Shown in pieces: positions 25,726-48,356 of a DNA stretch of 64,000 nucleotides. Below the pieces are notes generated by a model. It saw only the letters and a program-made list of their open reading frames with translations. It searched no databases and was not told where the DNA came from. A program made the position numbers and the translations under genes. Source of the stretch: a virus (lineage: Duplodnaviria; Caudoviricetes); IMG/VR virus record IMGVR_UViG_2791355159_000004, positions 1 through 64,000 of that record; one strand, written 5' to 3'. Position 1 is the stretch's first letter. Each line of letters begins with the position of its first letter.

Positions 25726-26109
25726 TAATCTTTACACAACATCATAGGATCCTGTTTTCAGTATAACCCTAAACATCAGCCTTAAAGCTCATCATTCTTT
25801 GACATACAACTCTCAACTGAAAGCTGGGAGGTTAACCGGCCCTTCGACGATTACTCTTTAAGATTCATCCTAGCCTGGCTTTGCTCGCCCGCCCATCCTG
25901 ATAGATGAACAGTACTTTTTTATCATGGCGAATAGGACGGTTTATGCTGACAGAAGAAGTGCCTGTCTAAGTGAACAAGCTGCACTATCAACTCTGTCTT
26001 GTTCGCAGTGAGCGCAGGCAGAGAGAATTGAACAAGAAACACTGACACCTTCTCCCCGAACACCATAACCCGCTTAACTGCGGTTTTTTTATTTGTACAG
26101 AGGAAAGCA

Positions 26110-29100
26110 ATGCACATTTTTCATCACCATGCACAAACGCCGCATGACAAACCTGACAACCTTCGCTCCTCTCAGGTACTGAGCGTAATGGATGTTGTCA
26201 GCGAAGGCCCCGTTGCCGGTCTTGTTGACGGTTTAAAAAGCGTGCTGATTAACGGCACGCCTGTGCTTGGGCCGGACGGACAGGTGAACGTGCAGGGCGT
26301 CAGTATGCACTTTCATGCCGGAACGGCGGATCAGCCACCGCTGAGCGGATTTGAGGCATCAGCCCGGGAAAAGCTGATCAATGCTGACGTGACCGCGCAA
26401 TATGCCGTCACGCGCACGGTGGATGGAAAGGAAACAGACCGGCTTCGCCTGACGCTGGGCGTTCGCCAGCTATTCTCGGTCAACAAAAAAGGCGAAACGC
26501 AGGATGCGTCAGTCACCCTGCGAATTCTTATCCGGCATCCTGCAGGCTGGAAAACGGAAAAAGACATTACCGTGAAGGGACGTACGCACGAGCCATTTGC
26601 GTTTTCGGTGATCCTTGAAGACCTGCCAGCTGCGCCGTTTGACGTTCGCGTAACGCGTATTACGCCTGACAGCACCGGTAACCGGCTGTTCAATAAGACC
26701 TTCTGGTCATCATATACAGAAATCACCGATGTCCGGCAATGCTATCTCCATACGGCCGTGACGGGCCTGAAAATTGACTCAGAGAAATCGGGCAATCAGC
26801 GAGCGGAGCGTAATTACCTGATGCGGGGGCGCCTGGTCAGGGTGCCGGCAAATTATGACCCGGTGACGCGCCGCTATGCCGGAGAACGCTGGAATGGCGA
26901 GTTCAAAGAAGCCTGGACGGACAACCCGGCCTGGTGCCTGTATGACCTGCTGATGCACCCACGCTATGGTCTGGGTCAACGAATGGGTATTGCAGATGCA
27001 GACAAGTGGGCACTGTATAACATTGCCCGCTACTGTGATGAAAAGGTCAGTGATGGCTATGGCGGGCTGGAGCCCCGCATCCGCTGCAACGCGTGGCTGA
27101 CCCGCCAGCGGAAGGCGTTCGATGTGATCGGTGATTTCTGCAGCATGATGCGCTGTATGCCCGTATGGAGCGGCCAGCGTCTGACGTTTATTCAGGATGC
27201 GCCTTCAGATGTTGTCTGGACCTACACCCGTGCCAGCGTGGCCGGCGGCCAGTTCCACTACAGCTTCAGCGCGCTGAAGGATCGCCATAACGCGGTTGAA
27301 GTACGTTTCATCGACCCACACAACAACTGGCAGCCTTCCATAGAGCTGGTGGAAGATCGCGAGGCCATAAAGCGATACGGGCGCAATCTGCTGAAAGTCG
27401 ATGCGTTTGGCTGTACCAGCCGGGGGCAGGCACACCGGACCGGCTTATGGATCATCCAGACCGAACTGCTGGAAACCCAGACCGTTGATTTTTGTGTGGG
27501 GGCAGAAGGGCTGCGTCATATCCCTGGTGATGTGTTCGAAATTTGCGACAACGATTATGCCGGGACCGCGACCGGTGGCCGGATCATTGCAGCAGAGCCT
27601 GAGAAAAAACTACTCAGGCTTGACCAGCCTGTGTCTCTTCCAGAAGAGGGACGTGCCACGCTGAATCTGATGAGTGAGACCGGGCAGCCTGTGACCGTCA
27701 GCGTGACCGGCCATCCTGAACCTGACTGTGTCGAAGTGGACAGCATGCCTGAAGGCATAACGTCATTCAGCGTCTGGGGGCTCAAACTGCCGGGTCTGCG
27801 GCAGCGCCTGTTTCGCTGCGTGGCCATACGTGAAAGCGAAAACGGCGGCTATGCCGTGACCGCACTGCAGCACTGCCCGGAGAAACAGGCGCGAGTGGAC
27901 GAAGGCAGGCGCTTTTCAGAAAACCCGGCCAGCGGGCACGCAATGTTACCGCCCGCTGTCCGGCATCTTCATGTCAGCGTCAGCGCTTCATCCGGCCACA
28001 TTCATGCCATTGCCCGATGGGAAGTTCTGCGGACCTCCGGCAGCGCACACTTTGATGTACGGGTCACTCGTGGCCATGATGCCACGGGATATCTGGTTTT
28101 CAGCCACACAACGGATCGGCCTGAATGTGCGTTCACTCTGCCAGAAAGGGGAAGCTATACGCTGAGCGTCAGTTCAGTCAATGAGGCCGGGCAGAAAAGC
28201 GAACCTGCCTCTGCCGGTATTACGGTTGCTGCACCTGAGGCTCCCGTATCCATTGACGTCACACCCGGCTATTTCCAGGTCACGCTGGTGCCACATCAGG
28301 CCGTTTATGATGCCACTGTACGTTATGAATTCTGGTATGCCGGAACCCGGCTCGCTGACGCGCAACAGGCCGAATCTCAGGCGCAGTATCTTGGAGAAGG
28401 ACGCTGCTGGATAAAAGACGGCCTCATGCCGGGCAATGTTCACTACTTCTATATCCGCAGCGTAAACGCGCTCGGCAAATCTGCTTTTACCGAACAGGCC
28501 GCCAGGCCGAGCGATAAAGCGGAAGACTATCTGGCGTTTTATAAGGGGAAAATCAGCGACACACATCTTGGCCAGAGCTTACTGACAAAAATGGAGCAGC
28601 TGTCAGAGGGCGCCACAAAAATCGGGAAAATTGAAAAGAGCTGGAAAGACACGGAAGGGCGGCTGAATTCGCAATGGTCGGTCAGACTTGAGCAGATGAA
28701 AAATGGTCAGTACTGCATGGCTGGCTTTGGCATGGGGATTGAGGAAAAACCGGAGGGGATGCAGAGTCAGATCCTGATGGCAGCCGATCGTGTGGCGTTT
28801 GTGAACACGGAGAACGGAAACACCGTACCCGCACTGGTTATTGAGCATAATGATATCTACTTTCGTGAAGCACTTATTAAGCATCTGCGTGCGGTCAGTC
28901 TCATCAGCAGTGGATCACCTCCATCATTCAGCCTGACACCAGACGGCAGGCTGTCAGCAAAAAAAGCCGACATCAGCGGTACCTTACGGGCAACGTCGGG
29001 TGAGCTTGAGAACGTCACGATTAAAGACAGCTGCACCATTGAAGGTGTACTGGATGCAAAACAGATAACAGGTGACATTTATAATGTTCAGTCAGGTGGA

Positions 29101-29526
29101 GTGCGGTTACCCGAAGGCGCTTTCAGCTGGTCCGACAAAGAAGGAGAACATGTTCTGTTCAGAATTGCTGGCGAGTCATTTGACCGTATTCTGGATACAA
29201 ATCTGACTCTGATGGCTCAGTGCCGTAGAAAACGGCAGCAGTTTAAGTTAATCATCCGGCATCATCATTATCAAAACGAAATATATAAAGATGTCCAGCT
29301 CGCTTACGCGGATACCGGTAATAAGGGACATGCCCCAGGCATGAGTTACAAAATAAACGGAATAAACCTGCCGGCGATCGGCCGGTCGCATGTGCACGAG
29401 TTGATTGTGTACGTAGGTAACAGTAAAAGGTTTGGCCGTGTCTGGTGCTATCTTCCCCCTGGCGAGGCACCAAAATTTACGGCCTATCGCGCAGGACGCT
29501 CATTTGTTACCAGCGGGGAAGTGTAA
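26110..29526 (+). CDS. J: tail tip / host-specificity protein J
   Basis: DNL.S.Q.L...D..SEGP, AWTDNPAWCLYD and GCTSRGQAHR. Confidence 0.95.
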   Translation: MHIFHHHAQTPHDKPDNLRSSQVLSVMDVVSEGPVAGLVDGLKSVLINGTPVLGPDGQVNVQGVSMHFHAGTADQPPLSGFEASAREKLINADVTAQYAVTRTVDGKETDRLRLTLGVRQLFSVNKKGETQDASVTLRILIRHPAGWKTEKDITVKGRTHEPFAFSVILEDLPAAPFDVRVTRITPDSTGNRLFNKTFWSSYTEITDVRQCYLHTAVTGLKIDSEKSGNQRAERNYLMRGRLVRVPANYDPVTRRYAGERWNGEFKEAWTDNPAWCLYDLLMHPRYGLGQRMGIADADKWALYNIARYCDEKVSDGYGGLEPRIRCNAWLTRQRKAFDVIGDFCSMMRCMPVWSGQRLTFIQDAPSDVVWTYTRASVAGGQFHYSFSALKDRHNAVEVRFIDPHNNWQPSIELVEDREAIKRYGRNLLKVDAFGCTSRGQAHRTGLWIIQTELLETQTVDFCVGAEGLRHIPGDVFEICDNDYAGTATGGRIIAAEPEKKLLRLDQPVSLPEEGRATLNLMSETGQPVTVSVTGHPEPDCVEVDSMPEGITSFSVWGLKLPGLRQRLFRCVAIRESENGGYAVTALQHCPEKQARVDEGRRFSENPASGHAMLPPAVRHLHVSVSASSGHIHAIARWEVLRTSGSAHFDVRVTRGHDATGYLVFSHTTDRPECAFTLPERGSYTLSVSSVNEAGQKSEPASAGITVAAPEAPVSIDVTPGYFQVTLVPHQAVYDATVRYEFWYAGTRLADAQQAESQAQYLGEGRCWIKDGLMPGNVHYFYIRSVNALGKSAFTEQAARPSDKAEDYLAFYKGKISDTHLGQSLLTKMEQLSEGATKIGKIEKSWKDTEGRLNSQWSVRLEQMKNGQYCMAGFGMGIEEKPEGMQSQILMAADRVAFVNTENGNTVPALVIEHNDIYFREALIKHLRAVSLISSGSPPSFSLTPDGRLSAKKADISGTLRATSGELENVTIKDSCTIEGVLDAKQITGDIYNVQSGGVRLPEGAFSWSDKEGEHVLFRIAGESFDRILDTNLTLMAQCRRKRQQFKLIIRHHHYQNEIYKDVQLAYADTGNKGHAPGMSYKINGINLPAIGRSHVHELIVYVGNSKRFGRVWCYLPPGEAPKFTAYRAGRSFVTSGEV

Positions 29527-29733
29527 TAACCATGCTGAGTAATAACGTTGAATATCCTGACATAGTGGCAGGTTGTTTATGCGAAGGGCTTCAAATCCAG
29601 TTCAGATAAAAGGCTGCCCCGGCAACAAGCACAACGGATGAAATAATATTGAGCGCAATAACAGTGCGAGGTGATACGTCCATTTCTGAAACTCCTTAGA
29701 TGAAGATTCTAAGATTAGCACCTGTATGAAAAT

Positions 29734-30891
29734 TTACTTCAGCTTGCCATCAAGCCAGTCTGCCCACCACTGCATCATTTCGCGCCGTTTTTCCAGATAC
29801 TGAGCATGGTTGTAAATGCCGCGGATATTATTTGGATCAGCGTGCGCCAGCTGTCGCTCAATAGCATCCTTAGGCCACAAGTATTCATTCAATATGGTAC
29901 TGAACTGATGACGGAACCCATGACCGCTCGCAATGCCACCGTAACCGATCAGGCGAATTACAGTCAGCACAGCACAGTCGCTTATTGGCTTCATCTTGTC
30001 ATTGCGTCCCGCAAATACATAAGGTGATATGGACGTGATCGGTTTCAGGAATTTGAGCAACGCAATAACCTGATCAGACATCGGCACGACGTGCATCTTG
30101 CGGCTTTTCATCACTTCTGGCTCAATCGTGATGAGCCTGTTCTCGAAATCGACGTTTTTCCACTGCATGCTTCTGAGTTCTATAGTACGCATTGCGGTGT
30201 ACTGAAGAACCTGAGTAGCGACGCGAGAAACAATACTTCCTGGATATGTTGCCAGAGCTGCATTAAAGGCTGGAATCTGGTCAGCAGGCAGGTACGGAAA
30301 ATTTTTTTTCCGGTAAGTCTGCATGGCATCTGCGAGATCAGGTGCGGGATTGTATCTGGCTCGCCCTGTCACTACGGCATACCTGAATACCTCACCACAC
30401 CGGCGACGAGCCTTGCTAGCACGCGAAAGAGCTCCACGCTCCTCAAACTGGCGCAGTACCGCAAGCAGCGTCATCGGTTCTATCTCTTCCAACTGCAACT
30501 TACCAATGTAAGGAAGGATATCATCCTTAAACATCTGCCTGACTTCAGCGGCATAGCGATCAGACCATGAGGCTCTTTTATACTTATACCACTCCTCAAA
30601 AATAGTACTGAAAGAGTCTGGCTCTTTGGTTTTTCGCAGCTTCTTCGTCGCCGGGTTTAAACCTGAAGCCAGGTCGCGCCTTAGCTCAAATGCGAGATTA
30701 CGTGCATCGGCCAGACCTATCTCCGGGTACTTACCGATGGTATGCACCTTCTCTTTACCATAATACTGATAACGGATCTGCCAGACCTTTTTACCGGTTA
30801 CCGGTACGTAAAGGTAAAGACCATTACCATCAGCAATCCGGTAAGGCTTGTCTTTGGGCTTTGCGGCGTTGATCTGTTTGATAGTAAGCAT
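29734..30891 (-). CDS. tyrosine integrase, IntS/P4 family
   Basis: MLTIKQINAAKPK (ATG 30891), DGNGLYL, HGFR, QLAH and YNHAQY; adjacent to the tRNA-Arg 3' end. Confidence 0.93.
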   Translation of the reverse strand: MLTIKQINAAKPKDKPYRIADGNGLYLYVPVTGKKVWQIRYQYYGKEKVHTIGKYPEIGLADARNLAFELRRDLASGLNPATKKLRKTKEPDSFSTIFEEWYKYKRASWSDRYAAEVRQMFKDDILPYIGKLQLEEIEPMTLLAVLRQFEERGALSRASKARRRCGEVFRYAVVTGRARYNPAPDLADAMQTYRKKNFPYLPADQIPAFNAALATYPGSIVSRVATQVLQYTAMRTIELRSMQWKNVDFENRLITIEPEVMKSRKMHVVPMSDQVIALLKFLKPITSISPYVFAGRNDKMKPISDCAVLTVIRLIGYGGIASGHGFRHQFSTILNEYLWPKDAIERQLAHADPNNIRGIYNHAQYLEKRREMMQWWADWLDGKLK

Positions 30892-30938
30892 TGGGTAAAA
30901 TCTGTACGGGTGAAATCTTTTTACCCAAAATTTACCCA
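30891..30938. promoter_or_regulatory. integrase arm-type sites (TGGGTAAA / TTTACCCA repeats)
   Basis: Inverted and direct copies lie directly upstream of the int start. Confidence 0.6.
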
Positions 30939-31053
30939 GAGGCACATGTGGATGTCAACGAACCGGGACAACCGATAGCGGAGTGGATGTAGAGGGAAGA
31001 GGTTGCTTTGTATGGACTTTACGAACTTGTACGGAGAGTAGCGAACTGAACCA

Positions 31054-31128
31054 TGGCGTCCCCTGCAGGAATCGAACCTGCAACTAGCCCTTAGGAGGGG
31101 CTCGTTATATCCATTTAACTAAGGGGAC
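31054..31128 (-). tRNA. argW: tRNA-Arg (anticodon CCT)
   Basis: Reverse complement GTCCCCTTAGTTAAATGGATATAACGAGCCCCTCCTAAGGGCTAGTTGCAGGTTCGATTCCTGCAGGGGACGCCA folds as a cloverleaf with a CCA end. Confidence 0.97.
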
Positions 31129-31323
31129 ATCGTTTCGGCGAGTTCAACGATGTGCGAACTGGTTTCTATACTACCGGAAAACCTGAGTTTTTAACAACCC
31201 TTACATTTCACATCATCTTACTTTGTTTCGATGTAAACCATATGGAAATGGGTTCGTTCACTTGCCTTTGCGTACACTTTGAGTACAGAATGCGTCAGAC
31301 CTATGTGTACAGGACATAAGACA

Positions 31324-32493
31324 GTGGCGCTCAGCGATACCAAACTCAGAAGCATTAACGGCAAACATTACAGCGGCCCCGCTGAAGTCACTGACGGGGA
31401 TGGATTGAGCGCGCGCATTACACCTACTGGCACGATCTCTTTTCAGTTCCGGTTCCGCTGGAACGGTAAGCCTGTACGCCTCACGGTTGGCCGTTACCCT
31501 GGCACATCCCTCAAAGACGCGCGCGTCATTGTCGGCGAGATGCGCGGATTGTACACGAAGGGGATTCACCCTAAAACCTACTTTGCCAGCAGTAAGGGTG
31601 AGCTGACGCTGCAGGAGTGCCTTGACCAGTGGTGGGAGAAGTACGTAGAGGGGCTAAAACAGAACACGCGCATTCTGTACAAATCTGTCGTGTACAACAC
31701 CATGTACACAGAATTTGAAGATATGCCTGTGGCCAACATTCCCGTCTCGCAGTGGGTACTCTTCTTCGATAAGCAGGAAAAGCTGAATAAGAAAAAGGCG
31801 CGGGTGCTTTTGCTACAGCTGCGGTCTGTCATCAACTGGTGCATTAGCCGGCAGCTGATCCCCTCATGTGAGCTGACAAAGCTTAGCGTCAAGAACATCG
31901 GGAAAAAGCCTGATGTGGGTGATCGCGTGCTGACTTACACCGAGCTGGCAAAAATCTGGCTGGCGCTTGAGAACAGCAAAATCGTCACATCAAACCGCAT
32001 GCTTCATCAACTGCTGTTGCTTTGGGGAGCCAGGCTGTCAGAACTACGCCTGGCAACGGCGTCAGAGTTCAATATGGATGATCTGATTTGGACCACGCCG
32101 GCCGCTCATTCAAAGATGGGGAACGTTATCCGGCGCCCGATATTTGAACAGGTGAGGCCTTACATAGAGCAGCTCCTGGCCACAAAAAATAGCGTACTTT
32201 TTCCGGGGCAGGCGCTAGATAAGGCGATAGACAGATCGTCGTCGAACCTTTACATGAAGAAATTACGTAGCGGAATTGAAATACCCGAGTGGCGCACTCA
32301 CGATTTCCGGCGCTCGCTTGTGACGAATTTATCCAGCGAAGGGGTTATGCCTCACGTTACGGAGAAGATGCTGGGGCATGAGCTGGGTGGGGTGATGGCG
32401 GTCTATAACAAGCACGACTGGTTAGAAGAGCAGCGTAAAGCATATGAGCTCTACGCCGATAAGATATTCTGGCATGTCAAACAGCTCGGTTAA
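31324..32493 (+). CDS. tyrosine integrase
   Basis: Likely GTG start at 31324 (ALSDTKLR); DGDGL, GARLSE, HDFRR, LGH and VYNKH. Confidence 0.92.
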   Translation: MALSDTKLRSINGKHYSGPAEVTDGDGLSARITPTGTISFQFRFRWNGKPVRLTVGRYPGTSLKDARVIVGEMRGLYTKGIHPKTYFASSKGELTLQECLDQWWEKYVEGLKQNTRILYKSVVYNTMYTEFEDMPVANIPVSQWVLFFDKQEKLNKKKARVLLLQLRSVINWCISRQLIPSCELTKLSVKNIGKKPDVGDRVLTYTELAKIWLALENSKIVTSNRMLHQLLLLWGARLSELRLATASEFNMDDLIWTTPAAHSKMGNVIRRPIFEQVRPYIEQLLATKNSVLFPGQALDKAIDRSSSNLYMKKLRSGIEIPEWRTHDFRRSLVTNLSSEGVMPHVTEKMLGHELGGVMAVYNKHDWLEEQRKAYELYADKIFWHVKQLG

Positions 32494-32671
32494 CTCCGCC
32501 TGACTCAATCCAGCGCTGCACCGCTTTTCGACTATAGCGCGCTGGGTGGGTAAGAACCGGCGACGGAAAACCGTGACATTTACGCAGGCGCCAGAGTGCC
32601 GTCCGCGCCTTGCCGATCTCCTGCATCACTTCCTGTTCGCTCATAAAATCTGAATTCATTATTTTCTCCAC
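32477..32671 (-). CDS. excisionase / AlpA-like protein
   Basis: Short wHTH with GFPSPV...RYSRKAVQRW, convergent with int. Confidence 0.8.
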   Translation of the reverse strand: MEKIMNSDFMSEQEVMQEIGKARTALWRLRKCHGFPSPVLTHPARYSRKAVQRWIESGGVNRAV

Positions 32672-32704
32672 TCCTGCTGCAACAGGCTAATCAATCGTGA
32701 CGTG

Positions 32705-33049
32705 TCACGGCGTAATGTTTAATTTTGTCTCAAGCCAGCCGCTAGTGGCCCAGCACTGCGAATCACCCTGGCAGGGGCAGGAAGCTACCGGCAGACGATC
32801 ACCACACTTCCCGCACTGGCGCTTCGCCAGCTCTTCCAGCTGCTGCGCCAGCTCAGCCGCGTCCTTGCGTATCAGCATGGTGATGTACTCGTTCAGCGTA
32901 TACGGCTCACGGCCAGGGCGCCGGGCGGCGCAGTTCTGCGCCAGCATCTCGACCTCTTGGCTATCCAGCTTCAGCTCCAGCTTTTTTTCGCCGCTGGCGG
33001 CCTGGCGTGCGCGCTGCGCGGCTTTGCGTTCGGCCGGGGATTTAGGCAT
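32705..33049 (-). CDS. hypothetical phage protein, Cys-rich C-terminus
   Basis: MPKSPAERKAAQRAR...CGKC...CPC...C. Confidence 0.75.
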   Translation of the reverse strand: MPKSPAERKAAQRARQAASGEKKLELKLDSQEVEMLAQNCAARRPGREPYTLNEYITMLIRKDAAELAQQLEELAKRQCGKCGDRLPVASCPCQGDSQCWATSGWLETKLNITP

Positions 33050-33808
33050 TTACACCTCCAGCGCCATTTGCAAAGAAATTCGGTCCCGCTGTTCGCAATA
33101 GACCAGTGAACCTTGGCTGTTATGCGACTCGATACGTTCAACTAACAAGGCCGCGCGGGTTTCTTTTGAAGCCGGCGCGTATGCGCCAGACCATGCTTTA
33201 TCAATCCCGATGTTGCGCGCGACATTGGTACTGTCCGCGCTCGCGAGCGGAAGCTTTGTAAAAATCTGCGGGTTGAGCATGCGCAGACCGTGGATCTTAG
33301 CGATCGGCTGTCCGTAAGCATCGGTCACGTGGCGAATAAGGTCTTTCATCCGCGCGACGGCGAGATTTGGCCGCTTCACGTCATACTCGCCGCAACTGCC
33401 GATCGCTACCCGAGGGTACTCATTGCAAAGCCGAATGAAACGCTCGTCACTTTCGTTCATATGCCACACCGGAACGCCGTAGAAATCACCGTGCGGCCAT
33501 TCATCCAGCAATGCCTCGTTCTCTGCCTCACCGCCATCAATAACGTCAGGGATGATCGCAAAATCGAAGCCTGGATGATTTTTCCAGCGCGCTACGAACT
33601 CGTAATAATCGGCCCAGTCTATTTTGTTTCTACCAGCTGCTTTCCACGCCGTAAATGCGCCGTTGTCCAGCGCAAAGGACTGGCATGCTTCAGACGCCAG
33701 CCCAAGCTGCTCTGGATGGGCAAACGAGATAAAGGCATGCCTGCCGCGCCAGGCTTTCAGCGCTGCAAGGTCAGGTGTAATCGGGCCTCCGTGATAGTGG
33801 ATCATCAC
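33050..33808 (-). CDS. hypothetical protein, possible TGT/DpdA-like fold
   Basis: FALDNGAF, IPDVIDG, VPVWH, HGLRML and SADST. Confidence 0.55.
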   Translation of the reverse strand: MMIHYHGGPITPDLAALKAWRGRHAFISFAHPEQLGLASEACQSFALDNGAFTAWKAAGRNKIDWADYYEFVARWKNHPGFDFAIIPDVIDGGEAENEALLDEWPHGDFYGVPVWHMNESDERFIRLCNEYPRVAIGSCGEYDVKRPNLAVARMKDLIRHVTDAYGQPIAKIHGLRMLNPQIFTKLPLASADSTNVARNIGIDKAWSGAYAPASKETRAALLVERIESHNSQGSLVYCEQRDRISLQMALEV

Positions 33809-34242
33809 TCACCCTCCTTACCGGCGCCGACGCGAAGCATATCCATCTCCAGCTGCGAGATGAGGTTAATAACGTGAGATACGCCGGGCTGTTGGTGGTT
33901 AGTCATGGTCTGGACGTATTTACGCGTCTGCACGACTGCTTCAGCCTGGAGAGCCTTAATCCACTCGTTTGCAGCTGGCGTCACCATGGTGGCGTTCAGG
34001 TTGGCAACGAGACTCATATGGTCGCCGGTGGCGTTCAGTGCGGCGATGGCGTCCGGCATGATGCTGTTAATTCGCAGCACTTCACCTGCCATCACACTGG
34101 CGCGAGCGTTCGCTACGTCGAGACGGGTAGCAAGCTCGCTGACCATCTTGGCCATGTCCATCAAGCCGGTATCAGCTGACACGTTCTTGGCAAACGCATG
34201 GCCGGCGGCAACGATCTCTTTATTCGATTTTGCGTTGAGCAT
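33805..34242 (-). CDS. hypothetical early protein
   Basis: 145-aa ORF coupled in the leftward operon. Confidence 0.7.
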   Translation of the reverse strand: MLNAKSNKEIVAAGHAFAKNVSADTGLMDMAKMVSELATRLDVANARASVMAGEVLRINSIMPDAIAALNATGDHMSLVANLNATMVTPAANEWIKALQAEAVVQTRKYVQTMTNHQQPGVSHVINLISQLEMDMLRVGAGKEGE

Positions 34243-34254
34243 GTTGGGGGCGCC

Positions 34255-34413
34255 TCAGTGGATGGTGATGCTGCGGTTCATTTCCTCAGCCATGCGCTGA
34301 GCTTTAATCGGGTTCTTTACCAGCTCACCGTCTGGGGCGATCCATCCCTTTAAAATGCTGGAATAGGGGAAGATGATGATCCCGACCTTGATGTCGTCGT
34401 TAGGCTTATGCAT
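34255..34413 (-). CDS. DUF1317-like protein
   Basis: DDIKVG...PYS...GWI.PDG...NPIKAQR.AE. Confidence 0.75.
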   Translation of the reverse strand: MHKPNDDIKVGIIIFPYSSILKGWIAPDGELVKNPIKAQRMAEEMNRSITIH

Positions 34414-34545
34414 ATGTTCTCTACACGATTTTTGATTGCATGAATTCCTTGCCAGTGACGGCAATAAAAAACTGAGGGATTCGTTTAAAGGGCTGGTGGG
34501 TTACTGCAATAACCCACTGCCTGATTTCTCCACACCGAAAAGAGG

Positions 34546-34677
34546 ATTGTGGTGCCGGGTGCCTCCCGGTGCTCTGGCCGAACTGACAAACTCCAGAGCG
34601 GTGACCTTTAGACTCCGAGCATCGCACGATAGTTACGATGCCAGTTCTCCGCGTGCGCTAGCCGCATTCACCACAAT
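34546..34677 (-). ncRNA. C4-antisense-like cloverleaf RNA (PL transcript)
   Basis: 9-bp closing stem ATTGTGGTG/CACCACAAT, internal hairpins, and a 3' arm CCGGGAGGCACCCGG. Confidence 0.6.
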
Positions 34678-34747
34678 GAGGAGGGCATTCACTCCACGTC
34701 TTTAAAGCGCTCGAAAGCACCCGCTTTGCAAATGCCCTTTTCATTGT

Positions 34748-34809
34748 GAAAAAGAGGGCGGTCAAATCAGATTGCGAACTGAAGAAACCGCCAAAAAACA
34801 CAGCGTCAT
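34748..34809 (-). ncRNA. DicF-like hairpin/terminator RNA
   Basis: TTTGGCGGT...ACCGCCC-TCTTTTT in the PL operon, similar in architecture to DicF as recalled. Confidence 0.4.
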
Positions 34810-34812
34810 CCA

Positions 34813-34962
34813 TCAAAAAACCGGCTTCGCTGCCGGGCTATCGACACAGCACTCCAACAACACGATCCCCATATCCCCATCGCAAACCAGCTCGGCATCC
34901 GGGAACAGGTACAGAAAAGTGATCAGGTCCCAGAGCGTTGTATTCGACATGTTCTTAATCAT
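34813..34962 (-). CDS. 49-aa first gene of the PL operon
   Basis: MIKNMSNTTLWDLITFLYLFPDAELVCDGDMG..., with GAGGG upstream. Confidence 0.55.
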   Translation of the reverse strand: MIKNMSNTTLWDLITFLYLFPDAELVCDGDMGIVLLECCVDSPAAKPVF

Positions 34963-35075
34963 TTTCACAGTGCTGCCCTCACGTCACTGCAACTTGCTTA
35001 GCGAACCATCCCGGCTGTCATGTGCCCCGATCAGATACCTCGTGGGCATCCTGCCTGTTCGCTATTGATGAATTC

Positions 35076-35138
35076 ATTATTGCCGGAAGTGATAAATTCG
35101 TCAACACCGCTAGAGATATTATATATCCTGCGGTGTTT
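35076..35138 (-). promoter_or_regulatory. PL promoter with OL1-OL3 operators
   Basis: TTGACG-17-AATAAT (35104 to 35076). CAACACCGCTAGAGATA at 35102-35118 is 1 mismatch from lambda OL2, with weaker flanking sites. Confidence 0.8.
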
Positions 35139-35237
35139 ATGTTATTGATTGGTCTAGTATTAAATTTTTTTGAAGGCTTCATTATTAAATTGAGCATGTG
35201 ATAGCGTGATTTTGGGCGCTTCTTGAGCGGAGGTTTC

Positions 35238-35441
35238 ATGAGCAAGCAATCAGATGAGCTCTATGATGAGATGTGCAGAGTAGTAGGCGACGTGGTTTTC
35301 ACGCTTCACGATTATGGGGTTGAGTCGAAGCAGATAGTGATAGCAGATGCACTCAGAACGGCGCTGGCATCGAAGAACCCTGCACGTTCTGAGCTACTGA
35401 CTAAAGCAATGGAAGCTGCGGCGAGAGTGCTGGATCGGTAG
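35238..35441 (+). CDS. small helical protein (DUF2767-like)
   Basis: GGAGG RBS; ELYDEMCRVVGDVVF. Confidence 0.7.
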   Translation: MSKQSDELYDEMCRVVGDVVFTLHDYGVESKQIVIADALRTALASKNPARSELLTKAMEAAARVLDR

Positions 35442-35445
35442 GTAT

Positions 35446-36345
35446 AAAAAAGCCCGCCTTACACGGGCATGAATTCGTTCAAGATGAAAGGGAAATCCAG
35501 AATGCCAGCCTAGCTGGCTTTGCCACCATATAGCTTTTGCAACAGATAGATACTACGGGACACTTTTGCTCTCAACACAGCACGATACAGGTGTGGACAC
35601 AAAAAAAAGCCCGTCACTCGAGGAGAGATGACGGGCAACGTGGTAGATAGCGAGTTGCTTTTAGAATCCCACCCATGACACACGATTTATCTGGCTAGTC
35701 TACTCATAGTAACAACCGAGCTTCACTATACAAGCGTAGCGGTTGATTAAATTAGCCATTACGCTGCAGAGACAAAAAAGCCCGCTCAGTGGCGGGCAAA
35801 GTGGTTCAGCACAGGATTAACCTGCAAATCTCGTACAGCTTACGCGCAACATCCTGTATGCGTGTAGCCATTACAGGTTAGGAGTGTGTGAGGTCTTGCG
35901 ATGTGGGAATGGTCCTACAAGTCATGAAGTTAGGATTGTTCTGGCAAGAGGAGTTGGCTTAAAAAAGCCCGCTCTATGGCGGGCAAGAAGACACAAATTC
36001 CAATGGGGAAAGCCATCGCACACAGCAAATAATGTGCTTTCAAAGCATAGGCTACTGCCGCTACGTTGTTGTGAAATATAGCGTAGTAATTTTACTCGTC
36101 AGGATTATGTTAGTTGATGTATTGAAAAGAAAAAAGCCCGCGCATAGCGGGCCAACCAGCTTTATTTCATATTGTCTTGTCGTTATGGGTGCCACTGAAT
36201 ACCAGAGCAAAGAGGTTAACGGCGACATAGCTGATAACTTTAGAGCAGCATCAAAAAAGCCAGCACGAGGCGGGCAGAGATGCTGTATAAAGTCTTTTTT
36301 AGCCTTCAGGCCATGTCTCTTTGGACATTATGTTATCGGCAGGAA
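35446..36345 (-). ncRNA. array of six putative small-RNA units, each ending in a GCCCG...CGGGC-T-run terminator
   Basis: Hairpins start at 35452, 35609, 35780, 35967, 36136 and 36259 (spacing 123-187 bp), all oriented for the minus strand. The bodies are unique, with promoter-like motifs upstream. Confidence 0.7.
36216..36242 (-). promoter_or_regulatory. sigma28 (FliA) promoter
   Basis: TAAAGTTA-N11-GCCGTTAA, against the consensus TAAAGTTT-N11-GCCGATAA. Confidence 0.7.
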
Positions 36346-36359
36346 GGGCTGAATAGAAA

Positions 36360-36905
36360 TTAGTGGAGATTGGAAGAAAGATCTTGCCCCAAATCAATCA
36401 ATCCCTGAATTGGGGCCGGGTCTATGTCTGCAAGTGACTTAACTACAATCCCTATTTCTTTGCAGCGATTAAATACGCCTTTGTCATGGGTCCAAACCTC
36501 ATCAACATTAAGAGATTTAGCTATAGCTATGATTTGCCGATCAAATTTCACTTTATTCGCAGTATCAGACTGCATCATAAGTTTTAATTCTTTTATGGAT
36601 GGCATTTGAGCACATTCTAAGGCTGCGATTTCATCGAAGCTGGCGATTTCAAAGCAAGCTTGCTGCTGAATCAACTTCAGATGAGTTTGGTGCTCTTTTT
36701 TATCAATTCCTACGAGGTATTCTGCTAAAACAGGAGTGGGAATGATTATCGAACCGCCACTGCTTTCGACCATATCGATTAAGGCTTCGACCCTTCTTGA
36801 AGGATCAGGGATTTCTAATCCATTTTCAGGGTTAGTTAGCTTGCATCCATCTTTCATACCTGTGATGGCCTGCACCAAAATGTTGGTATCGAATATTATT
36901 CGCAA
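36360..36905 (-). CDS. PIN-domain ribonuclease (copy 2)
   Basis: IFDTN, PTPVLAEY, FDRQIIAIA and WTHDKG; TTG start with a 10-bp overlap. Confidence 0.85.
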   Translation of the reverse strand: MRIIFDTNILVQAITGMKDGCKLTNPENGLEIPDPSRRVEALIDMVESSGGSIIIPTPVLAEYLVGIDKKEHQTHLKLIQQQACFEIASFDEIAALECAQMPSIKELKLMMQSDTANKVKFDRQIIAIAKSLNVDEVWTHDKGVFNRCKEIGIVVKSLADIDPAPIQGLIDLGQDLSSNLH

Positions 36906-37612
36906 TTTAGCGCCCTTAAAGCTTTCAAGATGGCTTGAGCGTCATCTTCTTCTTTCCATTGATTACCAGAGGCATTCTGTAATGCCTTAAAAGCAGTCTT
37001 CAAATTGGATTTTTCAAGAACTTCGTAGGAGTCAATTATTAATTTTTTAAGCTTCCATTTGCCATCTTTCTTTATCCATTCGCTATCACCTGAAACTCGC
37101 AGTTGCTTGAAAAGCAATGCACCTAACTTAGCAGCTAGGGCTGGCGTGGCTTCGCAATGATAAGTCTCCCCATTAGCGCCCTCAAGTTTAACTGGCGCCG
37201 AATCATCTTTACCACCAACATTATAAAGCTTCCCTTGAACACGACCTTTTTTTCGGATGATCAATGGTGCTTCTTCATTAAATGATGGGAATTCAAGGAT
37301 AGTAACTTTATCTTGATTAATTATTTTGGCTTCAAAGCCGTCCTGGGCCAAAAGAGAAACTAATTTTAAATATGAGCTTCCAGATGTAGCTGCTTGAGAT
37401 ATTGAGCGTTGTATAACCGCATTATATGAGCTTTGGTTATCAACCCAAGTGTTCAGACATGCTGACCCCTCGCTCACATCTTTAAAGTGAACGGCATCTA
37501 CCGAGCCATATAGGTCAGATAGTGCTGATAGATACTTGCCAAGACGCGCCATACTAAGCTCGCTTGGGCTTGTTCCATCAAGTTTTAAGGTCAGGCGGTT
37601 ATCTTTGCCCAT
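36896..37612 (-). CDS. 238-aa hypothetical partner of the PIN gene (copy 2)
   Basis: Homologous to 25009-25725 (LTLKLDGTSPS, VSEGSA, VGGKDDS, CEATP, NCE*). Confidence 0.85.
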   Translation of the reverse strand: MGKDNRLTLKLDGTSPSELSMARLGKYLSALSDLYGSVDAVHFKDVSEGSACLNTWVDNQSSYNAVIQRSISQAATSGSSYLKLVSLLAQDGFEAKIINQDKVTILEFPSFNEEAPLIIRKKGRVQGKLYNVGGKDDSAPVKLEGANGETYHCEATPALAAKLGALLFKQLRVSGDSEWIKKDGKWKLKKLIIDSYEVLEKSNLKTAFKALQNASGNQWKEEDDAQAILKALRALNCE

Positions 37613-37752
37613 GGATTATTTACAGCCTCAACATCAGATTAAAAATCCCATTATCACAACTTCATTGTTGTGCATCACTGATCTGCCGTCAACGCGTTTG
37701 TGCTCAAAAAATTCTTATCTTTTTGAACTCACCCAAACGTCTCTTCCGGCCA

Positions 37753-37911
37753 CTAACCTGCAGTAATCGCAATTACCGCATTCACAACTCCAGCAGCTAA
37801 CAGAACAACGCCCGGAATCAGGTAGTTTTTGTCACGCTTTTTGCGAGCCAGGTAGAACATTGCGAATGCAATACAAAACATCGGAAATGCTATCTTCGCA
37901 TAAACTGACAT
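37753..37911 (-). CDS. 52-aa two-TM membrane protein directly downstream of cI
   Basis: GGAGA RBS; MSVYAKIAFPMFCIAFAMFYLARKKRDKNYLIPGVVLLAAGVVNAVIAITAG. Too short for the ORF track. Confidence 0.7.
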   Translation of the reverse strand: MSVYAKIAFPMFCIAFAMFYLARKKRDKNYLIPGVVLLAAGVVNAVIAITAG

Positions 37912-37920
37912 GCTATCTCC

Positions 37921-38634
37921 TTAGCAGAATGTCTCCTCCGGCCACTGAGCCTTAACTACTTTCCCTATGATGCGGCAGCTGTGGTCACAGTCCAGAATTC
38001 TATAGGACGGATTGAGCGGCACAAGATAGCTTACACCGGCATCCTTCTCATACTTCTTAAAAGTTACCTCAGAGTCAGCGTTTGCTGATGCCACACAGAA
38101 ATCGCCAGTCTCGACCGGCTCTGCTGGGTCTATCAAAATCAGCATGCCTTCAGGGAAGCTTGGGCGAACGCCCTGCGGCGCGGTCATTGAGTGACCTTTG
38201 ACTTCAAGCCAGAATGCTTTATCGCTGGCCTTCTTGGTTGTCGGCACCCATGCTTTCGCATCTCTAGATGTAAAACTACCCACCTCAGAAAAATCACCAG
38301 CCTGGACATAAGTGAACAGGGGGTATTCATAATGATTCGGGCGAGAGCTTTCCTCGCCAATCGACTGATACATTTCAGCGATCTCAGCTGCGATTCTCGG
38401 ACTGAACTCACCAACATTAACTTTCAAAAACCTTGCTAATGCTGAGGCGTTGCTGGGATTTAGAGCGTTTACGCCATTCAACAATGATGCAACTGCTGAC
38501 TGACCAACGCCTAAGGCGTCCGCCACCGACTCTTGGGAAATGCCCAACTCAGATTTTTTGCGCTCATAGATTGATTTCAGCCTTTGCGCATCTTCGATTT
38601 GCTCAGTAGTGAGCGGTTTTTTCTTTGCATTCAT
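37921..38634 (-). CDS. cI: CI repressor, lambda-like (HTH + S24 peptidase)
   Basis: KKKPLT arm, SQESVAD..G.GQS, VQAG cleavage site, G.SM and FKK. Confidence 0.96.
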
Positions 38635-38644
38635 ACGTGAAATT

Positions 38645-38710
38645 TATCACCGCATGGGATAAAAGACTAACACCGCCAGTGTTGACTATTTTACCTCTAG
38701 CGGTGATAAT
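38645..38710 (+). promoter_or_regulatory. OR3/OR2/OR1 with PR and PRM
   Basis: TATCACCGCATGGGATA (38645), TAACACCGCCAGTGTTG (38668), TACCTCTAGCGGTGATA (38692); PR is TTGACT-17-GATAAT. Confidence 0.92.
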
Positions 38711-38729
38711 TGAGCCTATCCATTAGGAG

Positions 38730-38957
38730 ATGATTATGAGCCAGAGAATAAAACTCAAAGATTATGTAGAGCAGTTCGGTCAGACAAAGGCAGCTACCGA
38801 TTTAGGCGTTTACCAAAGCGCGATTTTCAAAGCGATTTCTCTAAAGCGTGACATCACTGTGATTCTCCATGAAGACGGAACAATTTCAGCGGAAGAAGTA
38901 AAGCCGTTCCCTGCAAATCGTAAGTGTGATCACAAGTCTATATCGACAGCTTTTTAA
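38730..38957 (+). CDS. cro: Cro, lambda-like
   Basis: QRIKLKDY...[19 protein letters not shown]...AEEVKPFP. Confidence 0.93.
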
Positions 38958-38985
38958 TTTTAACCACAGGAAAGAGGGCTCAACC

Positions 38986-39534
38986 GTGGATCAGCAGCAC
39001 TGGCAAATAGAAAAGCAACCGGCATGGCTGGTGGCAGCAATTAAGAAGACTATTTCAAGTCTTCCGGGCGGGTACGCAGAAGCAGCTGAATGGCTGGGTG
39101 TAACTGAAGATGCGTTGTTCAACCGCTTGCGCGCCAATGGCGATCAGATTTTCCCGATGGGCTGGGCGATGGTTCTGCAGCAGGCAAGCGGCACAAAGCA
39201 CATCGCCGACGCAGTGTCACGTCAGTCAAACAGCGTCAACGTCCCGCTGGTGGACATTGAGGATGTAGATAACGCAGATATCAATCAGCGCCTGATGGAG
39301 TCAGTTGAGTGGATTGGCAAGCATTCTGCCTACATTCGCAAAGCAACCGCTGATGGCGTGATTGATGAGGCTGAGAGGGAACAGATTGAGGAGAACAGCT
39401 ATCAGGTAATGGCTAAATGGCAGGAGCACCTTACGTTGCTTTATCGCGTTTTTTGCCCCCCAGAAAAGGCGAACGCCCCAGGTTGCAGCCCGGAGCGTTC
39501 AGTTGCGACCAAATCACTTGGTGTGGAGAAATAA
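38986..39534 (+). CDS. YmfL-like regulatory protein (CII position)
   Basis: LPGGYAEAAEWLG...LFNRLR...DQIFP; probable GTG start at 38986. Confidence 0.75.
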   Translation: MDQQHWQIEKQPAWLVAAIKKTISSLPGGYAEAAEWLGVTEDALFNRLRANGDQIFPMGWAMVLQQASGTKHIADAVSRQSNSVNVPLVDIEDVDNADINQRLMESVEWIGKHSAYIRKATADGVIDEAEREQIEENSYQVMAKWQEHLTLLYRVFCPPEKANAPGCSPERSVATKSLGVEK

Positions 39535-48019: not shown

Positions 48020-48204
48020 ATTTCCACACAATACCAAAGGCATTGAGCGCAGACGCTTATAAGGTCTGTCCAGGACTGCAAACCTGTAGCGCCTTTCATA
48101 TTGTGATAAATACCTAAATTTACCCTGTTGCCGACGGGCAAGGCTGTTACCGCGATTTGCGTCAGGGTATCTTATTGTTACTCTTTGATTTAGATTGGAG
48201 CTAA

Positions 48205-48308
48205 TGCGGTGAATCCCCCTCAGCGGCGGGGCTAGGTCAGTAGAAGTGATTGTTTAGCGACTCAGGATTCTCGCCTTACTGAGTCACCGGGAGGCACCCG
48301 GCACCGCA
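48205..48308 (+). ncRNA. second C4-like cloverleaf RNA (late leader)
   Basis: TGCGGTG/CACCGCA closing stem; shares GGTGAAT and the 21-nt CACCGGGAGGCACCCGGCACC with 34546-34677. Confidence 0.6.
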
Positions 48309-48356
48309 GGCTTATCACAACAATTTCAAAACCATCAGATGTTACGATCACATAGA

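What the first reader, a model, noticed from the sequence alone, without database searches (positions are those of the whole stretch)
35446..36345. Tandem array of six promoter-body-terminator units in the immunity region: a candidate phage small-RNA / sRNA-sponge cassette array
Seen: about 900 bp with no convincing ORF holds six related hairpins (stems starting at 35452, 35609, 35780, 35967, 36136 and 36259). Each reads (T)GCCCG..CGGGC plus 6-8 T on the minus strand, the sixth with one stem mismatch. They are 123-187 bp apart and separated by unrelated unique sequence. One terminator would be enough for the upstream operon. Most units have their own promoter-like signal about 70-130 nt upstream. 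Known: EHEC prophage anti-sRNAs (AgvB, AsxR) are short RNAs with a variable 5' seed and a conserved Hfq-binding terminator, and the OL-cI slot (rexAB in lambda) carries lysogen-expressed cargo. Inference: this is a modular array of independently transcribed Hfq-type sRNAs by which the lysogen rewires host regulation.
Basis: partly seen in the sequence, partly recalled or inferred. Interest (0 to 1): 0.88.

Follow-up and report, generated by a model that had tools for sequence, protein, structure and literature searches.

The report
Shuffled small-RNA-like cassette array in prophage
Between the repressor operon and the left operator of a lambda-like prophage lie six short non-coding units, each ending in its own terminator. 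The same units recur in other prophages in different orders, so they look like swappable small-RNA genes, but no expression data exist yet.

Summary
Six minus-strand intrinsic terminators lie at 35452-36275, spaced 123-187 nt and separated by unrelated sequence. Only two runs of six or more such sites occur in the 4.96-Mb genome, both in this prophage. The array lies between the cI operon and OL/pL. The main new result is comparative. Each unit is a discrete cassette that recurs at 75-99% identity in other, probably Pantoea, prophages and in 2 of 5,426 E. coli genomes. Order and number differ between loci (U1-U6 here; U3-U4-U6-U5, U3-U2-U5 and U3-U5 elsewhere). Breakpoints fall at the terminator T-runs. 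One superfamily (U5) keeps a promoter-like 5' module and a 3' terminator module 91-100 nt apart around unrelated centres. No ORF of 19 aa or more is kept in all homologs. The case for independent promoters is mixed. Conserved -10-like hexamers exist in U3-U6, but as a class the units score no better than shuffles for sigma-70 promoters (p = 0.94). The AgvB resemblance is sub-threshold, and pairing with GcvB is no better than for shuffles. No RNA data were available. Best reading (0.55): an array of moron-like small-RNA genes, shuffled at their terminators.

The parts
36253..36359 (-). U1 (107 nt). It runs from the stop codon of the PIN-domain gene to the terminator at 36259-36275 plus T6, and is the first terminator met by the cI-operon transcript. 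A CATAAT hexamer lies at 36332-36327.
   Evidence: A 92%-identical copy (unit positions 14-107) sits after U4, not after a PIN gene, in L185, L175, L163, L205, L207 and L202.
36130..36252 (-). U2 (123 nt), terminator 36136-36152. TGGTATTCA (extended -10-like) lies at 36204-36196. The last 60 nt give a sub-threshold, full-length match to the Rfam AgvB model.
   Evidence: RF02702, 23.6 bits, E = 0.13, gathering score 56. Homologs at 82-89% are in L190, L192 and L206. The -10-like hexamer is not kept in them (0.56), and there is a 5-nt indel in the CA-rich part.
35961..36129 (-). U3 (169 nt), terminator 35967-35984. Promoter-like CTGACG (36102-36097), 16 nt, TATATT (36080-36075). Predicted RNA of about 108 nt, with a conserved CUUUCCCC hairpin loop at 36012-36005.
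   Evidence: There are 8 distinct sequences. The -35-like hexamer is invariant in the 6 of 7 aligned sequences that cover it. The -10 position scores 0.86.
35774..35960 (-). U4 (187 nt), terminator 35780-35797. AATCCTAAC at 35937-35929. A conserved TAnnCT hexamer at 35880-35875 lies 6 nt upstream of a highly conserved block of about 95 nt that starts at 35868. The predicted RNA has three hairpins.
   Evidence: There are 13 distinct homologs at 75-97%, including E. coli BY63. One-nucleotide indels inside the conserved block, and the absence of a conserved ATG, argue against coding.
35603..35773 (-). U5 (171 nt), terminator 35609-35636 with a conserved CU-rich loop (35628-35617). The 5' module (35748-35728) contains the -35-like TTGTAT, followed after 16 nt by TACTAT (35711-35706). 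The 3' module starts at 35646.
   Evidence: U5 belongs to a superfamily (28 members, 13 distinct) that shares the 5' and 3' modules around four unrelated centres.
35446..35602 (-). U6 (157 nt), terminator 35452-35468, tail to tail with the DUF2767 gene. TTGAGA (35575-35570), 17 nt, TATCTA (35552-35547). The internal hairpin GCCAGC-loop-GCTGGC is followed by a conserved CU-rich stretch (35495-35486).
   Evidence: In 7 sequences the stem is kept while the loop varies. One compensatory pair lies in the terminator.
36360..38634 (-). The upstream operon that runs into the array: cI (37921-38634), a 52-aa ORF (37753-37911), a 238-aa protein (36896-37612, phrog_19868) and a 181-aa PIN-domain protein (36360-36905).
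35076..35150 (-). OL/pL. TTGACG-17-AATAAT (35104->35076) is embedded in operator-like repeats that share 9-mers with OR (38635-38730).
35223..35441 (+). DUF2767 gene (72 aa), convergent with the array. It lies between the array and OL.

Best explanation
The region is a tandem array of six moron-like small-RNA gene cassettes, cargo of the cI-OL slot of a lambdoid prophage (probably of Pantoea). Each cassette is inferred to hold a weak promoter in its first 30-90 nt, a non-coding body giving an RNA of roughly 60-110 nt, and a strong GCCCG-type intrinsic terminator with a U6-8 tail. U1's terminator also ends the cI-operon transcript. Shown: the units are discrete and non-coding, are conserved unevenly along their length, and are exchanged between prophages as whole cassettes with breakpoints at the terminator T-runs. 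They sit in two classical cargo slots, cI-OL and downstream of the tail-fibre assembly gene. Inferred: recombination between the near-identical 24-nt terminators, perhaps by phage recombinases, adds, removes and reorders cassettes. Also inferred: the RNAs are made in the lysogen and act in trans through conserved single-stranded or loop segments, several of them CU-rich. Their targets are unknown.
For: 1. Cassette behaviour. Blast of each unit against fetched loci gives these arrangements: U1-U2-U3-U4-U5-U6 (window); U2-U3-U4-U6 (L190); U2-U3-U4 (L192); U3-U4-U1'-(U5-type) (L185 group); U3-U4-U6-U5 (L169/L204); U3-U5 (own second prophage, G000:C6); U3-U2-U5 (L206). Homology covers nearly the whole unit and stops at the T-runs.
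2. Position. In every one of these arrays whose locus includes a cI homolog (11 loci), the array lies downstream of it on the same strand. U4 also occurs just after tail-fibre assembly genes in L183, L179 and E. coli BY63.
3. Slot variability. A related prophage in runs X1, X3 and X5 keeps the flanks. Between the DUF2767 gene and the PIN gene it has 568 other letters, a 26-nt stretch identical to U4's terminator, and 36 other letters.
4. U5 superfamily. 28 members (13 distinct) share a 5' module with a -35-like TTGCAy and a 3' module that includes the terminator with its loop. The modules are 91-100 nt apart and enclose four unrelated centres. A TAnnnT hexamer lies 16 nt after TTGCAy in 4 of 6 sequences inspected.
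5. Uneven conservation. The first 10-20 nt of every unit are least conserved (0.4-0.6) and the bodies and terminators most (0.85-0.99). The predicted -10 hexamers score 0.86-1.0 in U3-U6. In U4, only TA..CT is invariant inside a variable stretch across 9 sequences.
6. Non-coding. The ORFs of 19-30 aa are kept in 0 of 3, 0 of 4 or 0 of 12 homologs, except one 20-aa ORF in U5 kept in 2 of 3. Indels of 1-5 nt lie inside conserved blocks.
7. Structure hints. One compensatory pair in the type-B internal hairpin (1 of 16 pairs). In U6 the stem is kept while the loop varies.
8. Precedent. EHEC prophage sRNAs share conserved 3' regions of about 42 nt with variable 5' parts and lie at moron sites (PMC4104026, passages seen).
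Against: No transcript evidence. Canonical promoters are not enriched. For 25 scored non-first units (27 distinct; 2 dropped because the body was under 45 nt), the best sigma-70 score averaged 6.18 against 6.11 for shuffles (Wilcoxon p = 0.94). The PWM used recalled frequencies. The tool scan finds only U3's promoter. U2's -10-like hexamer is not kept in its homologs (0.56). U4 has no recognisable -35, and type C of the U5 superfamily has no clear -10. Covariation is thin: 0 of 22 pairs (U4), 0 of 26 (U3), 1 of 15 (U6, in the terminator) and 1 of 16 (type B). Whole-cassette exchange, and weak conservation at the 5' junction, would also follow from recombination at terminators without any function of the bodies. 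No target was found. Complementarity of 13 nt or more to the rest of the genome is near shuffle level for five units; U1 is higher (23 against 6.45), with no run longer than 15 nt.
Confidence: 0.55

Rival explanations
1. The terminators are the functional part and the bodies are passengers. On this reading the stack of terminators insulates pL and the early lytic operon from read-through of the co-directional cI-cargo operon. It built up as successive cargo insertions each brought a terminator and later lost their genes. Recombination at the repeated terminators then moves the intervening DNA around.
For: The array lies exactly between the cI operon and pL, and all three are leftward. The cargo between cI and the array differs between loci. 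Promoter scores do not exceed shuffles. Breakpoints coincide with the terminators. No expression data exist.
Against: Units keep full length in unrelated contexts instead of showing ragged truncation. U4 positions 3-19 to 187 are kept in 13 distinct homologs. They occur in short arrays of two or three units in the tail-fibre slot, where no pL needs shielding. Conservation within a unit is uneven, and the terminator loop and 5' module are kept across the U5 superfamily. The U6 stem is kept while its loop varies.
Confidence: 0.25
2. The units are expressed but are not classical trans-acting Hfq sRNAs. They could be micro-peptide genes, type I toxin-antitoxin-like pairs, protein-sequestering decoys, or cis elements read by a phage regulator through the shared AATCCT(A/G)AC motif.
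For: AATCCT(A/G)AC sits at unit positions 24-32 in both U3 and U4. AATCCTAAC occurs 10 times in the genome, 3 of them in the two arrays. A few ORFs of 13-20 aa persist in homologs. CU-rich conserved loops could bind a protein rather than an mRNA.
Against: The persistent tiny ORFs are no more conserved than the surrounding DNA and lack a checked ribosome-binding site. The 21-30-aa ORFs are lost in all homologs. No extended antisense partner exists elsewhere in the genome. No repeats of the type III antitoxin kind are present.
Confidence: 0.1
3. U2, and perhaps U3, are members of the AgvB family and act as sponges of the host GcvB sRNA.
For: U2's last 60 nt align end to end with the 62-position AgvB model, including a CA-rich 5' part.
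Against: The score is 23.6 bits against a gathering score of 56, E = 0.13. The best duplex of U2 with the host's own GcvB R1 region (GcvB found) is -16.6 kcal/mol, and 327 of 500 shuffles do as well. No unit beats its shuffles. The CA-rich part carries a 5-nt indel in homologs. The location differs from the PR' moron site described for AgvB.
Confidence: 0.03

Closest known systems
EHEC prophage short sRNAs / anti-sRNAs AgvB and AsxR (EcOnc01-03; Tree et al. 2014, PMC4104026; passages read, supplements closed)
   Same: Both are prophage cargo at moron-type sites: short non-coding units that end in GCCCG-type intrinsic terminators. Related members share a conserved 3' module joined to different upstream parts (passages).
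   Different: Not homologous at Rfam's threshold, and no GcvB mimicry. The slot here is cI-OL or post-tail-fibre rather than downstream of PR'. The units here form tandem co-directional arrays of six or seven unrelated bodies, not convergent pairs. Predicted RNAs are mostly about 95-108 nt, against 51-60 nt there. Expression and Hfq binding are shown there and not here.
Morons of lambdoid phages (Juhala et al. 2000, as cited in PMC4104026; concept recalled) and the rexAB slot of lambda (recalled)
   Same: Autonomous units ending in a terminator, inserted between conserved phage genes, present or absent between close relatives, and placed where lysogen-expressed cargo sits.
   Different: The cargo is non-coding and stacked in series. 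The promoter half of the moron definition is not demonstrated.
Tandem sRNA gene clusters such as OmrA/B and PrrF1/2 (named in the Pas sRNA preprint 10.64898/2026.05.13.724894, passages) and LhrC1-5 (recalled)
   Same: Several sRNA-type units in head-to-tail order, each with its own terminator.
   Different: Those are paralogous duplicates with shared seeds. Here the bodies are unrelated, and the order differs between genomes.
svsR, an sRNA at the 3' end of cI in the lambdoid prophage NC-SV (PMC12803456; passages read)
   Same: An immunity-region, prophage-encoded RNA reported to act in the lysogen (limiting phage infection). It shows that this neighbourhood can carry riboregulators.
   Different: svsR lies inside the cI gene and is a single RNA. 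I made no sequence comparison with svsR.

Membership tests
AgvB (Rfam RF02702) | Match to the covariance model at or above the gathering score (56 bits) | tested here: not met
   36129-36188(-), 23.6 bits, E = 0.13. Nothing in the array reaches gathering score.
AgvB (Rfam RF02702) | Seed that mimics GcvB targets and pairs with the GcvB R1 region | tested here: not met
   against the host GcvB R1, 327 of 500 shuffles of U2 pair as well or better. For the six units the range is 107-392 of 500.
AgvB (Rfam RF02702) | Location at the moron site downstream of PR' (passage in PMC4104026) | tested here: not met
   The array lies between the cI operon and OL/pL.
Hfq-dependent trans-acting sRNA | Intrinsic terminator with a U tail of at least 6, preceded by a single-stranded A/U- or U-rich stretch | tested here: met
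   all six have T6-T8, and the MFE folds leave the stretch before the terminator unpaired in U2-U6.
Hfq-dependent trans-acting sRNA | A discrete transcript with its own start site | not testable with these tools
   No RNA holder was listed. The promoter evidence is mixed.
Hfq-dependent trans-acting sRNA | Hfq binding and base-pairing targets | not testable with these tools
   Only a crude complementarity scan was possible, and it gave nothing beyond 15 nt.
Moron (promoter-gene-terminator insert in a phage genome) | Terminator at the 3' end, and presence or absence between otherwise syntenic phages | tested here: met
Moron (promoter-gene-terminator insert in a phage genome) | Own promoter | tested here: inconclusive
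   Conserved -10-like hexamers in U3-U6 and a conserved -35-like module in the U5 superfamily. Against this, no class-wide enrichment (p = 0.94).
Type III toxin-antitoxin antitoxin array (ToxI-like; features recalled) | Tandem near-identical short direct repeats next to a toxin gene | tested here: not met
   only the terminator element repeats and the bodies are unrelated. The adjacent PIN-domain protein has no PADLOC hit.
STnc100 (Rfam RF02076) | Match within the array | tested here: not met
   The hits lie outside the array: 48174-48349(+) at 59.3 bits and 34548-34675(-) at 30.7 bits.

The most novel reading that the evidence does not exclude
These prophages carry a recombination-shuffled library of riboregulator genes. 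The cassettes have adapter-like ends: a shared promoter module and a shared terminator/chaperone-binding module with a conserved CU-rich loop. Between these ends, unrelated cores of about 70-90 nt are exchanged. Whole cassettes are also added, dropped and reordered at their terminators, in the two lysogen-cargo slots of the phage. This would be an integron-like pool of small RNAs that lets temperate phages quickly change how a lysogen regulates host genes or competing phages.
Probability: 0.3. Interest if true: 0.8.

Novelty: new variant of a known kind. Interest (0 to 1): 0.62.

Why it matters
Prophage-encoded small RNAs are known one at a time, mostly from pathogenic E. coli and Salmonella. 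If these units are expressed, this would be a case where a temperate phage carries them in series. This prophage would hold six in the cI-OL slot and seven terminator-bounded units of the same kind past the tail fibres. The set would be re-dealt between related phages. That would give a concrete mechanism, recombination at shared terminators and shared promoter modules, for how accessory sRNA repertoires diversify. It would also provide a compact natural system for testing what lysogens gain from such RNAs. If the units are silent, the region is still a clear example of terminators acting as mosaic joints in lambdoid genomes.

Tried and rejected
Known families. Rfam at gathering score finds nothing in the array. 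In E-value mode it gives only sub-threshold matches driven by the terminator (AgvB, rseX, RyhB, Trp leader, anti-hemB). The second array likewise gives only sub-threshold matches.

Anti-GcvB. A duplex of whole units with the whole of GcvB was uninformative, because it produced only long spurious duplexes. The R1-restricted test was negative.

Long antisense partners. None beyond 15 nt.

Protein coding. No ORF of 19 aa or more is kept in all homologs; the only one kept in any is a 20-aa ORF in U5, in 2 of 3.

put-like antitermination RNA. I asked whether the STnc100-like element downstream of pL corresponds to the HK022 put RNA. Rfam finds no STnc100 match in HK022 26000-38000 at E <= 0.01, so I dropped the lead.

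Public collections. There is no match of the region in the phage collection, in near or distant mode, and none in E. coli genomes in near mode. Distant mode gave 2 of 5,426 genomes, both records 4,770,033 bp long and so probably one strain. The family-level genome search found only G000 among 401 genomes, but scored just 2 candidates per genome, so it is weak. At least one listed locus was real: L111, Candidatus Pantoea communis. It has the same coordinates as G066:C37, which is how I infer the genus.

RNA evidence. No RNA holder was listed. The four runs laid were DNA contigs.

Binding or complex prediction, structure prediction and protein homology searches were not used, because the finding is non-coding.

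I found no paper describing tandem arrays of unrelated sRNA cassettes in prophages in full-text searches. That covers the held library only.
Full report
WHAT IS THERE. The window is G000:C14:2-64001. The plus strand of 35446-36345 carries six copies of A6-GCC(C/A)G..loop..CGGGC. Read on the minus strand these are GC-rich hairpins followed by 6-8 T. My scan places them at 35452-35468, 35609-35636 (8-bp stem, 12-nt loop), 35780-35797, 35967-35984, 36136-36152 and 36259-36275 (one mismatch). The tool's stricter scan lists four of them, and counts 9 terminator-like sites in 34500-37500 against 2.7 +/- 2.0 in shuffles. Nothing else repeats between the units. I name the units in the direction of transcription: U1 36359-36253, U2 36252-36130, U3 36129-35961, U4 35960-35774, U5 35773-35603, U6 35602-35446.

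HOW UNUSUAL. The whole genome has 1,663 terminator-like sites by my criteria. Eleven runs have three or more same-strand sites no more than 300 nt apart. Only two of these have six or more: this one, and a seven-unit run at G000:C14:70750-71887. That second run lies just after the tail-fibre assembly gene of the same prophage. A three-unit run at G000:C6:9781-10138 lies downstream of the cI operon of a second lambdoid prophage in the same genome.

CONTEXT. cI (S24 peptidase plus HTH) is at 37921-38634(-). A cro-like gene is at 38730-38957(+) and a cII-like gene at 38926-39534(+). Downstream of cI on the same strand come a 52-aa ORF, a 238-aa protein (phrog_19868) and a 181-aa PIN-domain protein. 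None of them has a PADLOC hit. The array follows, then a convergent DUF2767 gene (35223-35441, +). After that comes a promoter-like TTGACG-17-AATAAT at 35104->35076(-), embedded in operator-like repeats that share 9-mers with the cI-cro intergenic region. This is where lambda carries rexAB (recalled).

THE UNITS ARE CASSETTES. Blast of each unit against loci from the genus, IMG/VR and metagenomes shows homologs at 75-99% that nearly always span the whole unit. The order differs between loci:
- U2-U3-U4-U6 (L190)
- U2-U3-U4 (L192)
- U3-U4-U1'-(U5-type) (L185, L175, L163, L205, L207)
- U3-U4-U6-U5 (L169; L204 is probably the same contig)
- U3-U5 (own C6 prophage; L196)
- U3-U2-U5 (L206)
- U3'-(U5-type) (L197/L210)
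U4 also occurs with unrelated neighbours in at least three further arrangements. Some IMG/VR and metagenome loci are duplicates of one another, so I count arrangements, not loci. A systematic cut at terminators gave 107 units in 33 arrays from the window plus 28 loci. Alignments show that homology ends at the T-run on the 3' side and begins within about 3-19 nt after the preceding T-run.

In every one of these arrays whose locus also holds a cI homolog (L039, L161, L169, L175, L185, L190, L192, L196, L204, L206, L207), the array is downstream of cI on the same strand. In L183, L179 and E. coli BY63, U4 instead lies just past a tail-fibre assembly gene. A related prophage seen in DNA contigs of runs X1, X3 and X5 keeps both flanks, at about 5% (cI-operon side) and 12% (pL side) difference. 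Between the DUF2767 gene and the PIN gene it has 568 other letters, a 26-nt stretch identical to U4's terminator, and 36 other letters.

Distribution: 13 of 75 genomes of the genus at E <= 1e-5, G000 included. No further match among 401 genomes of the family, though only two candidates per genome were scored. 2 of 5,426 E. coli genomes. None in the phage collection. The genus is probably Pantoea. Locus L111 (Candidatus Pantoea communis) has the same contig coordinates as G066:C37, which the tool lists as the same genus.

A SUPERFAMILY WITH CONSTANT ENDS. The last 44-56 nt of U5 recur behind quite different bodies. A pattern joining the shared 5' and 3' motifs found 28 members, 13 of them distinct. 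All have a 5' module that ends in a -35-like TTGCAy. In most it is preceded by an A/T-rich stretch. All have a 3' module made of about 15 nt plus a terminator whose CU-rich 10-12-nt loop is itself conserved. The two modules are 91-100 nt apart. By eye there are four unrelated centres: A (U5 itself, four contexts), B/B', C (first unit of the prophage's second array) and D. A TAnnnT hexamer lies 16 nt after TTGCAy in 4 of the 6 sequences inspected; type C has none that I can see. Types B and B' keep an internal hairpin through one G-C to A-U double change and two wobble changes (1 of 16 pairs; four sequences).

ARE THEY GENES FOR RNAs? Evidence for:
- Conservation is uneven within every unit. 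The first 10-20 nt score 0.4-0.6 and the bodies and terminators 0.85-0.99.
- In U4 (9 sequences, 13 distinct), a variable stretch contains an invariant TA..CT. It lies 6 nt before a block of about 95 nt that is nearly invariant even in the E. coli copy.
- U3 keeps CTGACG-16-TAT(A/G/C)TT, except for one TTTCTT.
- U6 keeps TTG(A/C)GA-17/18-TATCTA. Its GCCAGC/GCTGGC stem is kept while the loop changes in five ways.
- The 21- and 30-aa ORFs are lost in all homologs. The only ORF of 19 aa or more kept in any homolog is a 20-aa one in U5, in 2 of 3. Indels of 1, 3 and 5 nt sit inside conserved blocks.
- With these -10 positions the predicted RNAs are 68, 60, 108, 95, 97 and 95 nt.

Evidence against:
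- A sigma-70 weight matrix (recalled frequencies) gives the 25 scored non-first units a mean best score of 6.18, against 6.11 for their shuffles (p = 0.94).
- The predicted RNA lengths from those best hits scatter widely.
- U2's hexamer is not conserved (0.56).
- Covariation is nearly absent, because the families are too similar.
- No RNA data could be had.

WHAT THEY ARE NOT. They are not AgvB-family members, and U2 is not a GcvB sponge by sequence. They are not long antisense RNAs to anything else in the genome. They are not type III antitoxin repeats. They are not protein-coding remnants that I can detect.

MECHANISM, WITH STEPS MARKED. Shown: terminator-bounded, non-coding cassettes are exchanged whole, sit in two cargo slots, and carry conserved internal blocks. 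Inferred: each cassette has a weak or regulated promoter and yields an sRNA of about 60-110 nt in the lysogen. U1's terminator also ends the cI-operon transcript. The near-identical 24-nt terminators, and in the U5 superfamily the shared 5' module too, serve as short homologies for recombination that reshuffles cassettes and cores. Conserved single-stranded or loop segments act as pairing or protein-binding surfaces: CUUUCCCC in U3, the CU-rich loop in U5, UUUCCCUUUC in U6 and GUACGAGAUUU in U4. Their CU-rich make-up would fit pairing with ribosome-binding sites. This is speculation. Precedents read in passages: EHEC prophage sRNAs with conserved 3' and variable 5' parts at moron sites (PMC4104026); svsR at the 3' end of cI, which limits phage infection (PMC12803456); and Pas sRNAs with seeds near or in the terminator (preprint 10.64898/2026.05.13.724894).

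VERDICT. The specific AgvB/AsxR analogy holds as an architecture but fails as membership. Expression, Hfq dependence and function remain untested. I put 0.55 on an array of sRNA genes and 0.25 on functional terminators with passenger DNA. Most of the remainder (0.13) goes to other expressed-element readings. I rate it a new variant of a known kind, interest 0.62.

Noticed in passing
G000:C14:70750-71887 (outside the window; L038 6749-7886, minus strand): A second array of seven terminator-bounded units sits at the right end of the same prophage, convergent with the tail-fibre assembly gene. Its first unit is a U5-superfamily member (centre type C). Two units are paralogs that carry AATCCTAAC 106 nt from their terminator ends.
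   Followed up: partly
window 34548-34675 (-) and 48174-48349 (+): There are two STnc100-type elements. One passes Rfam's threshold (59.3 bits) in the late region. The other is a partial match (30.7 bits, E = 2.5e-4), about 400 nt downstream of pL and beyond a terminator at 34821-34836. No N-like ORF is evident between pL and the DUF1317 gene. HK022's early region has no such match, so this is not the put RNA by Rfam.
   Followed up: partly
window 38635-38730 and 35076-35150: The OR and OL operator-like repeats (for example TACCTCTAGCGGTGATA and TATCACCGCATGGGATA) look very like those of phage lambda as I recall them. This suggests lambda-like immunity specificity in a probable Pantoea prophage. 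I did not compare them with a lambda record.
   Followed up: no
window 33050-33808 (-): A 252-aa protein in the pL operon matches phrog_887, queuine tRNA-ribosyltransferase (E = 3e-95). It is a candidate DNA or tRNA 7-deazaguanine modification gene.
   Followed up: no
G000:C6:10243-11549 (L039, minus strand): In the second lambdoid prophage, the cargo between cI and its three-unit array weakly matches the PADLOC candidate defence pair PDC-M24A/B (E = 1.5e-3 and 9e-8; DUF6978 and DUF1828).
   Followed up: no
window 35223-35441 (+): The DUF2767 gene has no plus-strand terminator after it. The U6 hairpin lacks a T-run on that strand. Its transcript could therefore run antisense through the whole array.
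   Followed up: no
window 31057-31128 (-): A tRNA gene (65 bits) about 2 kb left of the early-left genes. It may mark the prophage attachment site.
   Followed up: no
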